Of a DNA stretch of 41,815 bases, positions 38,457 to 39,230 are shown one piece after another. A model generated the notes under the pieces. It saw nothing but the letters and a program-made list of their open reading frames with translations, did no database searches and was not told the DNA's origin. Each line of letters begins with the position of its first letter. The first letter of the stretch is position 1. The stretch is from Candidatus Flemingiibacterium sp. (GTDB lineage Bacteria > Bacillota > Clostridia > Oscillospirales > CAG-272). Made by a program: the position numbers and the translations under genes. The stretch spans positions 1 through 41,815 of the forward strand of contig JAZRAB010000125.1 in assembly GCA_045634345.1 (NCBI GenBank). Reading direction: 5' to 3'.

Positions 38457-39230
38457 GTAATCACAAAAGGCGCAGACAGCAATTGCTTAAGCAACGGACT
38501 TTTAATTCGTAGAGCTAACGGGAGGTATATCCCGGGTATGTGCCTTGCTTAAAGATACGAACAGCAACTCATCCAATCATTGCTGACGGCCTTACTCCAC
38601 ATGGAGCGCTCGCGGTTGTAGCGGGAAAGATGGCTGATTTTGAATCGTATCTTGTTAAACGGTACTGCGGTCTGAGTCCATGTCGTGACCATGTCAACTT
38701 GGCCGCAGTGCTGTTAAAACGCATCGATGATAATACCTACTCCTGCTGGGTTGGTGTTCACTTGCGGTGCGGTTGAATTGCCCCTCATTTGCGGAGCCGC
38801 CGCTGCGTGTTTTATCGAAAGTGTGTCCGCCGAGGGATAATTCATTCAAAGGCACATACTGCAACTCTTATAGCTAATGAAATTGGATCAAAAAGTGAAA
38901 AATGTGCCTTGTTATTTCGAAGCTTAACGGAATCCGACCTACATATACTGTGTATGTGTAAGTGGGTTTACCGATAAGACATTAAAGACGCTCACAGCAC
39001 TGAAGCATTGTCAGGTAAGTTCTGACCCACGCCGATATTGGCGTGAAATTCACGCAAATGCGTCTTGTATATGAGAAATGGCAACAGTGAAAACTTACCG
39101 AAGTTCATTGCTCAAAGCACCGCTTTGAAATCCTGCCATTTTTCATCTTTTTCCGCTTCCCCAGAGACACGCACAGCAATTTATTCCTACTTATTTATCA
39201 AGACTCCTAAAAGGGGTGTCTTGTTTTAAA
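38457..39230 (+). ncRNA. Candidate large structured noncoding RNA (unclassified)
   Basis: About 770 nt lack any RBS-supported ORF. Helices are numerous, for example AAGGCACAT/ATGTGCCTT (38848/38902), ACTGCGG/CCGCAGT, CACGCC-gatatt-GGCGTG and AGACGC/GCGTCT. The region ends at a terminator-like hairpin CAAGAC...GTCTTG followed by TTTT near 39199-39227. Boundaries and strand are inferred. Confidence 0.4.

What the first reader, a model, noticed from the sequence alone, without database searches (positions are those of the whole stretch)
38457..39230. About 770 nt ORF-free, helix-rich region: possible large ornate ncRNA next to tRNA genes
In a window with otherwise very high coding density, this stretch has only short ORFs without RBSs (38540..38776 and 38789..38977). 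It shows many nested complementary segments:
- 9-bp AAGGCACAT/ATGTGCCTT
- 7-bp ACTGCGG/CCGCAGT
- ACATATAC-tgt-GTATGTGT
- CACGCC-gatatt-GGCGTG inside AGACGC/GCGTCT

A promoter-like block precedes it, and a terminator-like hairpin with TTTT lies near 39199-39227. Large bacterial ncRNAs such as ROOL and GOLLD are known to sit beside tRNA genes in Firmicutes. I cannot recall their consensus well enough to assign a class.
Basis: partly seen in the sequence, partly recalled or inferred. Interest (0 to 1): 0.75.

Follow-up and report, generated by a model that had tools for sequence, protein, structure and literature searches.

The report
Array of Ro-partner-like small RNAs
The ORF-free stretch is not one giant RNA but the first part of a 1.4-kb array of nine small hairpin-closed RNA modules with a shared conserved "handle", placed with a tRNA and a tRNA mimic in front of a Ro60-like protein gene; the same handle lies beside this protein family in many gut Clostridia and phages and matches no Rfam family.

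Summary
Window 38457-39230 is non-coding and helix-rich, and all four cited helices exist. The non-coding block actually runs to 39885.

The single large ornate RNA reading is not supported. No ROOL, GOLLD, OLE, raiA or HEARO match appears even at E<=10.

The block holds nine tandem modules on the + strand. Each has the form A-AAG-R-Y-R-C-NN-ACAGCAA, then a variable interior, then an A-rich stretch, then G-Y-R-Y-CUUG-U. Between them lie structured spacers, a tRNA-like element and a tRNA-Phe. Shuffles give 0.48 modules against 9 observed.

The array lies between a conserved promoter and a DUF2828/vWA gene. The predicted fold of that protein matches only Ro60/TROVE rings. In relatives the operon reads WYL-WCX regulators, array, DUF2828, RtcB.

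Of 77 related loci, 76 carry 1-11 modules, with 403 on the sense strand and 5 on the antisense strand. The stem covaries. Interiors fall into conserved classes, most often tRNA-like.

The ACAGCAA handle also flanks DUF2828 genes in Listeria, Bacillus, Staphylococcus, Enterococcus, E. coli and Mycobacterium phages, often inside tRNA arrays.

Best reading: these are Y-RNA-like partner RNAs of a Ro60-like protein. Binding is inferred, not shown.

The parts
36148..37470 (+). HTH-WYL regulator gene (440 aa), first gene of the locus
   Evidence: Pfam WYL 1.6e-5. PADLOC WYL 2.7e-10. A homolog is present in 63 of 80 related loci.
37467..38378 (+). Second WYL/WCX regulator gene (303 aa)
   Evidence: Pfam WCX 9.5e-4. 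PADLOC WYL 6.8e-7. A homolog is present in 66 of 80 loci.
38393..38418 (+). Intrinsic terminator of the regulator genes (11-bp stem followed by a T run)
38410..38456 (+). Conserved promoter/operator block. -35-like GTGAAA at 38428-38433; extended -10 TGgTAAAAT ending at 38456.
   Evidence: The same block recurs at 41446-41491. It is 80-100% identical upstream of the arrays in dozens of related loci.
38467..38547 (+). Module U1 (handle AAGGCGCA/UGUGCCUU). The interior has an anticodon-arm-like hairpin. It starts about 3-4 nt after the predicted transcription start.
   Evidence: The MFE closes with the handle, z -2.7. The interior class is found in 6 loci.
38552..38654 (+). Module U2 (handle AAGAUACGA/UCGUAUCUU)
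   Evidence: The MFE closes with the handle, z -2.2.
38655..38848 (+). Spacer S1: structured segment without a handle. It contains the ACUGCGG/CCGCAGU hairpin with a UGUCGUGAC apical loop.
   Evidence: Partly conserved in L002. By eye, the hairpin resembles the core of interior class c6.
38849..38911 (+). Module U3 (handle AAGGCACAU/AUGUGCCUU; ACUGCAA variant of the motif)
   Evidence: z -2.5.
38912..38984 (+). Spacer S2: long hairpin (ACAUAUAC/GUAUGUGU)
   Evidence: z -3.4, with 0 of 200 shuffles folding as well.
38985..39067 (+). Module U4 (handle AAGACGC/GCGUCUU). The interior holds the conserved UGUCAGGUAAGUUCUGACC hairpin and a variable second hairpin.
   Evidence: z -3.3. The class is found in 15 loci.
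39068..39163 (+). Spacer S3: conserved three-way-junction RNA with invariant GAAAACUU, followed by a U5-type module in every homolog aligned
   Evidence: z -6.6. 16 of 25 predicted pairs keep pairing through double changes in 8 loci.
39164..39223 (+). Module U5 (handle GAGACAC/GUGUCUU).
   Evidence: Handle and motif are conserved in 5-8 loci. It does not close in the isolated MFE, z -0.8.
39250..39358 (+). Module U6 (handle AAGAUGCC/GGCAUCUU). The interior has three hairpins, giving a cloverleaf-like layout.
   Evidence: The class is found in 20 loci. 13 of 20 predicted pairs show compensatory changes.
39359..39434 (+). Spacer S5: hairpin closed by AUGUGCC/GGCACAU
   Evidence: z -3.0. The closing stem is kept in L002 around a different interior.
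39435..39510 (+). Module U7 (handle AAGGCGCAA/UUGCGCCUU)
   Evidence: z -3.9. The class is found in 19 loci. Where a tRNA or tRNA-like follows, it starts about 5-6 nt later.
39516..39586 (+). tRNA-like element with normal acceptor, D and T arms and an aberrant anticodon arm
   Evidence: Rfam tRNA 35.1 bits against a gathering score of 29, with 4 non-canonical pairs. ARAGORN calls it Phe-GAA. The same GGAGGGC...GCCCUCCA class follows U7-type modules in 6 other loci.
39593..39675 (+). Module U8 (handle AAGGCAAGU/ACUUGCCUU)
   Evidence: z -2.2. The class is found in 4 loci.
39682..39757 (+). Canonical tRNA-Phe(GAA) gene embedded in the array
   Evidence: Rfam 73.5 bits. ARAGORN. Canonical tRNAs of 62-67 bits (Phe-GAA where ARAGORN was run, L004) lie just upstream of the last module in L001, L004, L005, L007, L010.
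39759..39847 (+). Module U9 (handle AAGGC-C/G-GCCUU with one A.C mismatch), the last module. The RBS follows.
   Evidence: The class is found in 14 loci. In L002 the same class precedes a different ORF. It is weak in isolated folding, z -0.3.
39886..41343 (+). DUF2828/DUF7788 protein (485 aa): Ro60-like HEAT-repeat ring plus vWA domain with a conserved DxSxS MIDAS motif
   Evidence: Pfam DUF7788 7e-42 and DUF2828 3e-36. D292/S294/S296 are invariant. AF2 pLDDT 76. The top 12 Foldseek PDB hits are all Ro60/TROVE, E 4e-8 to 3e-5, over the full length.
41446..41815 (+). Second copy of the promoter block, then the start of a different leader RNA cut by the window end. The leader is about 430 nt in relatives and contains a T-arm-like GCGGGUUCGAAUCCCGC at 41612-41628.
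   Evidence: In L011 the homologous leader precedes SPFH and RtcB genes.

Best explanation
The region is the 5' part of a roughly 1.43-kb polycistronic non-coding array (38457-39885). It is transcribed from the conserved promoter at 38428-38456, together with the downstream Ro60-like DUF2828 gene.

Contents of the array:
- Nine small RNA modules of 60-110 nt.
- Three to four other structured spacers.
- One tRNA mimic.
- One genuine tRNA-Phe.

Each module is closed by an 8-9-bp stem. The stem starts with invariant A-U, A-U, G-C pairs, then covarying R-Y, Y-R, R-Y pairs, then C-G. Immediately after the 5' strand comes the invariant single-stranded ACAGCAA. It faces an A-rich stretch on the 3' side, and the 3' strand is followed by G-U. 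This 'handle' is constant, while the interior is a swappable cargo domain. In relatives the cargo is most often a tRNA-like fold.

Proposed mechanism (inferred):
- The modules are released from the primary transcript, at least partly by RNase P and RNase Z acting on the tightly abutting tRNAs.
- The handle is the binding site for the DUF2828 ring protein. This parallels the 5'-3' stem plus conserved internal-loop motif of Y RNAs, which binds Ro60.
- The variable interiors then gate the protein or tether it to different partners or substrates, within an RNA damage/repair pathway with RtcB under WYL regulators.

Status of each step:
- Shown: the module anatomy, covariation, strand specificity, class structure, tight linkage to DUF2828 genes across bacteria and phages, and the Ro60-like fold.
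- Inferred: transcription, processing, protein binding and biological role.
For: (1) Modules are real and non-random.
- 9 in the window against 0.48 in shuffles.
- 403 sense against 5 antisense in the window plus 80 loci.
- With a stricter pattern, 358 of 371 modules lie within 2.5 kb upstream of the DUF2828 start.
- 76 of 77 loci carry at least one module.

(2) The stem is under RNA-level selection.
- Positions 4-6 switch G-C/A-U, C-G/U-A and G-C/A-U in near-equal numbers, and position 8 uses all four Watson-Crick pairs.
- 224 of 329 sequence-only 5' anchors have a perfect partner, against 20.8 when the arms are swapped among modules.
- Mismatches are G.U-type 19 times and A.C-type 4 times at positions 4-7.

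(3) Interiors form conserved, independently structured classes with compensatory changes. Module number and order vary among loci.

(4) The adjacent protein is Ro60-like by fold. All 12 significant PDB matches are Ro60/TROVE rings, and the MIDAS motif is conserved.

(5) The operon context matches the known rsr-Y RNA-rtcB logic. RtcB is present in 67 of 80 loci and the WYL/WCX regulators in 63-66 of 80.

(6) The linkage also holds when starting from the RNA. A scan of viral contigs with the 5' handle alone returned 120 loci, 27 of which have a DUF2828 homolog (35-45% identity) in the short stretch held.

(7) The ACAGCAA handle flanks DUF2828 or 'Ro-like RNA-binding protein' genes in six unrelated phage lineages. 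It lies upstream or downstream of the gene, with lineage-specific stem bases but an invariant ACAGCAA. In the complete 131-kb P100 genome, 3 of the 4 handle-bearing ACAGCAA sites form one cluster directly upstream of that gene.

(8) Spacing to tRNAs is tight. A tRNA starts 4-8 nt after CUUG, and the preceding tRNA ends 1-6 nt before AAG.

(9) Literature.
- Y RNAs are defined by a 5'-3' stem flanking an internal loop with a conserved Ro-binding motif, and they are encoded beside Ro60 on the same strand (PMC4201824, PMC12135203).
- In the P100-like phage CKA15, the DUF2828 homolog was matched to Rsr by HHpred. Very abundant non-coding transcripts map within 2 kb upstream of it (PMC12282133).
Against: - No binding, transcript or processing data exist for this organism.
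- The handle lacks the GNCGAAN0-1G/CGAA motif of all described Y RNAs, and the Rfam YrlA model does not match: 23 bits against a gathering score of 69 at best in a relative, and nothing in the window.
- The Ro60 likeness of DUF2828 rests on a medium-confidence model (pLDDT 76; TM 0.35-0.54), with no sequence-level PDB match.
- 93 of the 120 motif-selected viral stretches show no DUF2828 gene in the DNA held. Those stretches are short, and some of the matches are chance.
- Two window modules (U5, U9) do not fold stably in isolation.
- The array sits in what is formally the 5' UTR of the DUF2828 gene. A U9-type module precedes another ORF in L002. Both facts would also fit a cis-acting role.
- The only coordinates given for the CKA15 abundant RNAs (26,236-26,727) are a different region from the three handle modules.
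Confidence: 0.6

Rival explanations
1. The modules are cis-acting punctuation or stability elements of polycistronic tRNA/mRNA transcripts. In this reading they are structured leaders and trailers that guide RNase P, RNase Z or other nucleases, or that protect processed ends. They would have no specific partnership with the DUF2828 protein.
For: - Spacing to tRNA 5' and 3' ends is fixed and short.
- Modules are interspersed in large phage tRNA arrays.
- A module lies about 37 nt before the DUF2828 start codon in most loci.
- A U9-type module precedes an unrelated ORF in L002.
- The first module sits at the predicted 5' end of the transcript.
Against: - In the window, in 80 bacterial loci and in the complete P100 genome, the modules occur essentially only beside the DUF2828 gene. 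P100 has about 18 tRNAs but only the three modules next to gp165.
- Mycobacterium phage Winky and Staphylococcus phage SEP9 carry three modules each immediately downstream of the gene, with no tRNA abutting them.
- Conserved, structured interior classes are not expected of simple processing signals.
Confidence: 0.15
2. The array is a regulatory leader, sensor or decoy. Tandem tRNA-like and other mimics in the 5' UTR would be attacked by anticodon nucleases or other RNA-damaging toxins. They would either soak those toxins up or generate the fragments sensed by the WYL regulators, which would switch on DUF2828-RtcB.
For: - Two WYL-domain regulators and a very conserved promoter/operator block accompany the array.
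- The most common interior is a tRNA-like fold, often with a tRNA-Phe-type anticodon loop CUGAAAA, and a real tRNA-Phe is embedded in the array.
- Damaged tRNA fragments are proposed to activate the analogous Salmonella operon through RtcR (PMC7790460).
Against: - The phage versions have the handle and the DUF2828 gene but neither WYL regulators nor RtcB in the stretches held: 0 of 120. The conserved pair is therefore handle plus DUF2828, not handle plus regulator.
- The window's own modules have non-tRNA interiors.
- The decoy idea does not explain the invariant ACAGCAA handle.
- This rival is compatible with the best explanation as a downstream role, rather than strictly exclusive of it.
Confidence: 0.12
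3. One reading: 38457-39230 is one large ornate structured RNA of the ROOL/GOLLD/OLE type with a single global fold.
For: - The region is ORF-free and folds better than shuffles.
- It lies beside tRNA genes, as ROOL and GOLLD often do.
- Real ROOL RNAs do occur among handle modules in two phage tRNA arrays.
Against: - No Rfam large-RNA match appears at E<=10.
- The boundaries are wrong, because the same repeating unit continues to 39847.
- Modules close on themselves.
- Relatives carry 1-11 modules in different orders and combinations, and in L002 an ORF is inserted mid-array.
- No long-range pair is conserved. The long-range pairs in the MFE are cross-pairings between near-identical handles.
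Confidence: 0.03
4. The repeats act at the DNA level, for example as MITE/REP-like palindromes or attC-like recombination sites of a cassette array. Alternatively, the region encodes small proteins.
For: - The modules are imperfect inverted repeats with variable centres, arranged in arrays, and their order differs between genomes.
- One 54-aa ORF (39065-39229) gives weak tblastn hits in 3-4 loci.
Against: - Strand bias is strict, 403 to 5. G.U-type mismatches outnumber A.C-type ones.
- The elements are confined to one locus per genome.
- No integrase or transposase accompanies them.
- The attC R'/R'' consensus is absent from the handle (from the handle consensus, compared by eye with the published attC consensus).
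- The tblastn hits fall on S3 and U5. There the substitutions are compensatory for RNA pairs (16 of 25 pairs), indels break the reading frame, and no RBS is present.
Confidence: 0.04

Closest known systems
Bacterial Y RNAs (YrlA/YrlB, Yrn1; Rfam RF02553) with Rsr/Ro60, as in the Salmonella rsr-yrlBA-rtcBA operon and the D. radiodurans Rsr-Y RNA-PNPase complex
   Same: - Small RNAs are encoded next to a Ro60-type ring protein, on the same strand and often in several copies.
- The 5' and 3' ends pair into a stem that flanks an internal loop carrying a conserved motif.
- The variable effector domain is frequently a tRNA mimic.
- RtcB lies in the same operon (PMC4201824, PMC7790460).
   Different: - The conserved motif is ACAGCAA next to an AAG/CUU-based stem, not GNCGAAN0-1G/CGAA.
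- The Rfam YrlA model does not match.
- The tRNA-like cargo in relatives is unpermuted: the handle extends the acceptor end. In YrlA the tRNA-like domain is permuted, with the Ro stem at the anticodon position.
- The protein belongs to Pfam DUF2828/DUF7788, not TROVE.
- Arrays reach 9-11 modules.
- The regulators are WYL/WCX proteins, not RtcR.
Thermus phage phiLo Ro60 with Yrl1/Yrl2 (PDB 9KOP, 9L5Y; PMC12135203)
   Same: - This is the best structural match of the DUF2828 model (E 4e-8, TM 0.52-0.54).
- It is a phage-encoded ring protein with two small stem-loop-stem RNAs just upstream of its gene, and those RNAs bind it in vitro.
   Different: - Binding there depends on a CGAA motif.
- Sequence identity to the window protein is only 13%.
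- No ACAGCAA handle has been reported there.
ROOL and GOLLD large ornate RNAs (Rfam RF03087, RF01998)
   Same: They occur in Bacillota and their phages, often beside tRNA genes. Two phage tRNA arrays that contain handle modules also contain a ROOL RNA.
   Different: - The window has no ROOL/GOLLD match at E<=10.
- The window RNA is a string of 60-110-nt units, not a 500-800-nt single fold.
tRNA-punctuated polycistronic transcripts (mitochondrial 'tRNA punctuation', tRNA-linked small RNAs such as mascRNA)
   Same: Small RNAs abut tRNAs or tRNA-like folds at distances of a few nucleotides. RNase P and RNase Z cleavage would therefore define their ends.
   Different: This is an analogy for biogenesis only. 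No shared sequence family exists, and processing has not been shown here.

Membership tests
   - Window at gathering threshold: only 2 tRNA hits.
- 38300-39900 at E<=10: none of these families.
- Positive control: ROOL at 313-323 bits in L109 and L159.
YrlA / bacterial Y RNA (RF02553) | Match to the Rfam YrlA covariance model (gathering score 69 bits) | tested here: not met
   - No YrlA hit in the window at E<=10.
- 23.1 bits in the relative L005, spanning a tRNA and a tRNA-like interior.
- No hit on the phage modules at E<=0.5.
YrlA / bacterial Y RNA | GNCGAAN0-1G (CGAA) Ro-binding motif near the 5' end, within or beside the terminal stem (PMC4201824, PMC12135203) | tested here: not met
   The handle carries ACAGCAA instead. 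The only GNCGAANG in 38457-39885 is at 39544-39551, inside the anticodon loop of the tRNA-like element. 0.7 such sites are expected by chance.
YrlA / bacterial Y RNA | Permuted tRNA-like domain (T arm, closed acceptor-like stem, D arm) with the Ro stem at the anticodon position | tested here: not met
   The window modules have other interiors. In relatives the tRNA-like interior aligns end to end with the standard tRNA model (positions 1-71), so it is unpermuted.
Y RNA (functional class) | Encoded within a few kb of a Ro60-type protein gene on the same strand | tested here: met
   - The window array ends 38 nt before the DUF2828 start codon.
- 358 of 371 modules lie within 2.5 kb upstream of the gene.
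Y RNA (functional class) | 5' and 3' ends pair into a stem that flanks an internal loop with a conserved sequence; the rest of the RNA is variable | tested here: met
Y RNA (functional class) | Physical binding to the Ro60-type protein | not testable with these tools
   This needs EMSA, RIP or structural work. It is inferred here from co-occurrence only.
Ro60/TROVE protein family (for the neighbouring gene) | HEAT-repeat ring plus C-terminal vWA domain with a MIDAS motif | tested here: met
   - The AF2 model has helical repeats over residues 21-277 and an alpha/beta domain over 287-475.
- Full-length Foldseek matches go to Ro60 structures only.
- The DxSxS motif is invariant.
Ro60/TROVE protein family (for the neighbouring gene) | Match to Pfam TROVE (PF05731) or sequence-level match to solved Ro60 structures | tested here: not met
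   Pfam gives DUF2828 and DUF7788, not TROVE. phmmer and profile searches of the PDB find no Ro60.
tRNA | Rfam tRNA model at or above 29 bits and a cloverleaf called by ARAGORN | tested here: met
   - 39682-39757: 73.5 bits, Phe-GAA.
- 39516-39586: 35.1 bits with four non-canonical pairs and a shortened anticodon region, so it is better called tRNA-like.

The most novel reading that the evidence does not exclude
The ACAGCAA handle defines a previously undescribed and very widespread RNA family. It would be the cognate loading tag of the DUF2828 branch of Ro60-like proteins. The protein family has 8,091 representatives at 50% identity and members in 711 phage records.

In this reading, bacteria and phages use the tag to load interchangeable RNA cargos onto one ring protein. 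The cargos include tRNA mimics, cloverleaf-like folds and others. The arrays would work as a programmable toolkit in the fight over tRNA cleavage and repair.
Probability: 0.45. Interest if true: 0.85.

Novelty: new variant of a known kind. Interest (0 to 1): 0.72.

Why it matters
Ro60 and its Y RNAs are conserved from bacteria to humans. Their bacterial biology is known from only a few species, and only one RNA family (YrlA) is catalogued.

This locus points to a second Ro60-like protein branch, sequence-divergent but very common (DUF2828), with its own RNA partners. They are marked by a simple, searchable signature: a stem, then NN-ACAGCAA, then an A-rich stretch, then the return stem and G.

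If binding is confirmed, several things follow:
- Hundreds of 'hypothetical' intergenic regions in gut Clostridia and in well-studied phages (Listeria P100/A511, Staphylococcus, Bacillus, Felix-O1-like, mycobacteriophage cluster L) would gain an annotation.
- At least some of the unannotated space in and beside phage tRNA arrays would be explained.
- The field would have a tractable system, with cultured hosts and phages, to ask what Ro-type RNPs do during RNA damage and phage infection.

The finding also shows that multi-module arrays can look like a single 'large ornate RNA' to a reader working from sequence alone.

Tried and rejected
- Rfam at gathering and at E<=10 on the window, relatives and phage loci gave only tRNA, plus ROOL and partial OLE hits in two phage contigs. 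Nothing matched the modules.
- The YrlA model scored too low, and the GNCGAAN0-1G motif is absent from the handle.
- Sequence and profile searches of the DUF2828 protein against the PDB found nothing. Only the fold search linked it to Ro60.
- NCBIfam has no model for any of the four locus proteins. PADLOC has none for DUF2828 and matches only the WYL regulators.
- The small-ORF hypothesis was rejected. The weakly conserved 54-aa ORF lies on an RNA three-way junction with compensatory changes.
- DNA-level repeats (MITE, attC) were rejected on strand bias, G.U excess and single-locus distribution.
- The look-up of encoding contigs did not find the source contig, so the genes downstream of the window end are inferred from L011 and L022.
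- Burroughs & Aravind 2016 and the 2020 Annual Review on bacterial Ro60 are not held. Whether they mention DUF2828-associated RNAs could not be checked. My memory that the former treats Ro-like proteins in RtcB systems remains unverified.
- I tried to tie the handle modules to the 'three highly transcribed regions' of phage CKA15. The only published coordinates (26,236-26,727) are a different RNA of about 490 nt, so the link stays open.
- I did not build a covariance model. The 35-150-nt variable interior makes a single CM awkward, so a transparent pattern scan with shuffles, antisense controls and arm-swap controls was used instead.
- R-scape is not available.
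Full report
**1. What is in the sequence**

Window 38379-39885 lies between the stop codon of a 303-aa ORF and the start codon of a 485-aa ORF. It holds no ORF longer than 78 aa on either strand.

Their products find nothing in 80 related loci except the closest relative, where nucleotide identity explains the match.

- The + strand of 38457-39230 folds to -251 kcal/mol (z -3.6).
- The - strand folds to -223 kcal/mol (z -2.8).

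A sigma-70-type promoter with an extended -10 element (GTGAAA-17 nt-TGgTAAAAT, 38428-38456) follows a strong terminator at 38393-38418.

**2. It is a tandem array, not one RNA**

Reading the sequence shows a repeating unit. A pattern scan finds nine copies, all on the + strand:
- 38467-38547
- 38552-38654
- 38849-38911
- 38985-39067
- 39164-39223
- 39250-39358
- 39435-39510
- 39593-39675
- 39759-39847

The scan requires four things:
- N-A-G, then six bases.
- ACAGCA with at most one mismatch.
- A CTTG 35-175 nt downstream.
- At most one non-Watson-Crick pair at stem positions 4-7.

It finds none elsewhere in the 41.8-kb window and none on the - strand. One hundred dinucleotide shuffles of the window give a mean of 0.48 hits on both strands, with a maximum of 2.

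In single-sequence folding, eight of the nine units close with this stem, with z from -2.2 to -3.9 for seven of them. U5 does not close and U9 is weak.

The 'terminator-like hairpin' at 39203-39227 is the 3' arm of U5.

Between the units lie:
- Three strongly structured spacers: S2 (z -3.4), S3 (z -6.6) and S5 (z -3.0).
- A 194-nt segment, S1.
- A weak tRNA-like element at 39516-39586 (35 bits).
- A canonical tRNA-Phe at 39682-39757 (73.5 bits).

Rfam 15 reports nothing else, even at E<=10 on 38300-39900. There is no ROOL, GOLLD, OLE, raiA, HEARO or YrlA match.

**3. The neighbouring genes**

The downstream ORF (39886-41343) matches Pfam DUF7788 (7e-42) and DUF2828 (3e-36), with a vWA-type DxSxS motif that is invariant among homologs. 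Sequence and profile searches of the PDB find nothing.

An AlphaFold2 model (pLDDT 76) searched with Foldseek gives twelve hits at E<=3e-5. All twelve are Ro60/TROVE rings, aligned over the full length:
- Thermus phage phiLo Ro60 (9KOP/9L5Y, E 4e-8, TM 0.52-0.54).
- Xenopus Ro60.
- Human Ro60.
- D. radiodurans Rsr.

The next hits are isolated vWA or armadillo domains.

The two upstream ORFs are WYL/WCX regulators.

In relatives the order is WYL, WCX, array, DUF2828, RtcB. RtcB is found in 67 of 80 loci, WYL in 63 and WCX in 66. In the window, a second copy of the promoter block and a different leader RNA follow DUF2828. In L011 that leader precedes SPFH and RtcB genes.

This is the logic of the Salmonella rsr-yrlBA-rtcBA RNA-repair operon (PMC7790460), with different regulators and a divergent Ro-type protein.

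**4. Comparative evidence for the module**

A scan of one genome per species found 275 DUF2828 relatives, and 80 loci were kept, mostly Oscillospiraceae and other Clostridia MAGs and isolates.
- In the window plus these loci the scan finds 403 modules on the sense strand and 5 on the antisense strand.
- With a stricter pattern, 358 of 371 modules lie within 2.5 kb upstream of the DUF2828 start codon.
- 76 of 77 loci with at least 300 nt of upstream sequence have at least one module (median 5, maximum 11). The last CUUG lies a median of 37 nt before the start codon.

The consensus is A-AAG-R-Y-R-C-N-N-ACAGCAA, then the interior, then A-rich, N, G-Y-R-Y-CUUG-U-W.

The stem pairs covary:
- Position 4: G-C 211, A-U 183.
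- Position 5: C-G 277, U-A 117.
- Position 6: G-C 202, A-U 186.
- Position 7: C-G 367.
- Position 8: all four Watson-Crick pairs.
- At positions 4-7 the rare mismatches are G.U-type 19 times and A.C-type 4 times. This fits an RNA made from the + strand.

A test that does not use pairing for selection gave a clear result. Of 329 anchors defined by AAG-N6-ACAGCR alone, 224 have a perfectly complementary arm in front of a downstream CTTG. Only 20.8 do when the arms are swapped among modules.

**5. Interiors are cargo**

Clustering the 403 interiors gives conserved classes shared across genera.
- The largest class (101 modules in 62 loci) is an unpermuted tRNA-like fold, scored 40-53 bits by the tRNA model. 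It often carries a tRNA-Phe-type loop CUGAAAA.
- The window has none of this class. Six of its modules belong to other classes: U6 (20 loci), U7 (19), U4 (15), U9 (14), U1 (6) and U8 (4).
- RNAalifold on the U6 class predicts the handle plus three inner hairpins, with 13 of 20 pairs kept through double changes.
- The U4 class keeps an invariant UGUCAGGUAAGUUCUGACC hairpin.
- Spacer S3 is a conserved three-way junction, with 16 of 25 pairs kept through double changes. This also explains the weak tblastn signal of a 54-aa ORF there.

The number, order and mix of classes differ from locus to locus. In L002 a 408-aa ORF sits inside the array, behind a U9-type module. A single global fold is therefore excluded.

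**6. The link to the protein holds in both directions and far beyond Clostridia**

Twenty-seven of them contain a DUF2828 homolog of 35-45% identity. None contain RtcB or the WYL genes.

In these phage contigs the modules lie inside large tRNA arrays on the tRNA strand. When a tRNA follows, it starts 4-8 nt after CUUG. When one precedes, it ends 1-6 nt before AAG. The window shows the same spacing: 5 and 6 nt before the tRNA-like element and the tRNA-Phe.

GenBank phages hold DUF2828 homologs in 711 records. Where annotated, they are called 'RNA-binding protein', 'Ro-like RNA binding protein' or 'putative ribonucleoprotein'.

In all six lineages examined, ACAGCAA modules flank the gene on its strand:
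- Listeria P100: 3 upstream, behind a sigma-A promoter, stems AGGAAUC/GAUUCCU and similar.
- Bacillus FADO: 5, in an unannotated tRNA array.
- Enterococcus EF1: 1.
- Staphylococcus SEP9: 3 immediately downstream.
- E. coli Felix-O1-like C600M2: among tRNAs, stem AGACC/GGUCU.
- Mycobacterium phage Winky: 3 immediately downstream, stem UGGNC/GNCCA.

The stem bases differ by lineage, while ACAGCAA and the trailing G stay fixed. Rfam has no match for any of these modules at E<=0.5.

The complete 131-kb P100 genome has 29 ACAGCAA sites. Only four have a handle of at least 7 bp followed by G. Three of those four form the cluster directly upstream of gp165.

**7. Interpretation**

The constant feature across phyla is the pair 'handle RNA plus DUF2828 ring protein'. 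Regulators, RtcB, tRNAs and the position relative to the gene all vary.

Described Y RNAs share three properties (PMC4201824, PMC12135203):
- They are encoded beside Ro60 on the same strand.
- Their ends pair into a stem that flanks an internal loop with the conserved Ro-binding motif (GNCGAAN0-1G/CGAA).
- Their variable part, often a tRNA mimic, tethers or gates.

The modules here have the same architecture and genomic logic. I therefore read them as the Y-RNA-like partners of a Ro60-like protein, released from a polycistronic transcript partly by tRNA processing.

They are not members of the YrlA family:
- The model fails to match.
- The motif differs.
- The tRNA-like cargo is unpermuted.

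Transcription, processing and binding are all inferred.

Indirect support comes from the P100-like phage CKA15. Its DUF2828 homolog was matched to Rsr by HHpred, and very abundant non-coding transcripts were reported within 2 kb upstream, where the authors raised a Y RNA hypothesis. The only coordinates they give are a different RNA of about 490 nt (PMC12282133).

Rivals that remain open:
- A purely cis-acting punctuation or stability role.
- A sensor or decoy role in the WYL-controlled operon. This could coexist with protein binding.

**8. Novelty**

The Ro60-Y RNA-RtcB theme is known, and phage annotators have already labelled DUF2828 proteins 'Ro-like'.

What I could not find in Rfam 15 or in the searchable literature:
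- The ACAGCAA handle family.
- Its multi-module arrays.
- Its spread through gut Clostridia and phage tRNA arrays.

I rate this a new variant of a known kind.

Noticed in passing
window 41446-41815 (cut by the window end); L011 7565-8050; L022 1540-1908: After the DUF2828 gene, the terminator/promoter block is repeated. It drives a different non-coding leader, about 430 nt long in L011, with a tRNA T-arm-like GCGGGUUCGAAUCCCGC (window 41612-41628). In L011 the leader precedes SPFH/Band-7 and RtcB genes. It has no Rfam match and no ACAGCAA handle.
   Followed up: partly
window 38410-38456 and 41446-41491; upstream of the arrays in dozens of the 80 related loci: A block of about 46 nt (GTTCGCAGCTTTTTTTCCGTGAAAA.GAGGAAAAAGGTGGTAAAAT) is 80-100% identical across genera. 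That is far more conserved than a promoter needs to be. It is a candidate operator for the WYL/WCX regulators.
   Followed up: partly
L109 5852-6477 (-) and L159 3837-4428 (+) (IMG/VR contigs): Genuine ROOL RNAs (323 and 313 bits) sit inside phage tRNA arrays that also carry ACAGCAA handle modules. The same two contigs give partial OLE-model hits of about 53 bits (L109 187-276, L159 10084-10167), covering model positions 436-595 only.
   Followed up: no
L202 2837-3328 (Listeria phage CKA15 26,236-26,727, minus strand): An unannotated RNA of about 490 nt lies between tRNA-Pro and CKA15_058. It is reported to make up to about 67% of phage transcripts late in infection (PMC12282133). It has no Rfam match and, by eye, no ACAGCAA handle. 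It lies about 0.6 kb upstream of the three handle modules.
   Followed up: partly
L161, L109, L159, L107 (IMG/VR contigs): The phage tRNA arrays that hold handle modules include tRNAs with a CUA anticodon, which ARAGORN labels 'Pyl'. These are likely amber suppressors, suggesting stop-codon-recoded gut phages.
   Followed up: no
window 39068-39163 (S3) with 39164-39223 (U5): S3 is a conserved three-way-junction RNA with invariant GAAAACUU. In every homolog aligned, a U5-type module (CCCAGAGACACNNACAGCAA) follows it directly. The two may form one composite RNA. A U-run after the S3 closing stem could also act as an attenuator.
   Followed up: partly
L002 3796-5022 and L002 52-804: In the closest long relative (89% identical DUF2828), a 408-aa ORF with no Pfam match is inserted within the array, behind a U9-type module. 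A Thg1-like tRNA 5'-repair enzyme gene lies just upstream of the WYL genes.
   Followed up: no
window 39516-39586 and the homologous elements after U7-type modules in L003, L006, L009, L015, L017, L002: This is a recurrent tRNA-like class. It has a GGAGGGC/GCCCUCC acceptor stem and normal D and T arms, but a truncated or aberrant anticodon arm. The window copy carries GUCGAAAG, a GNCGAANG match, in the loop.
   Followed up: partly
window 33933-34541 and 35255-36136: An HTH_17/MerR-like (excisionase-type) protein gene and a 293-aa ORF without any family match lie just upstream of the WYL genes. This may mark the edge of a mobile or variable region.
   Followed up: no
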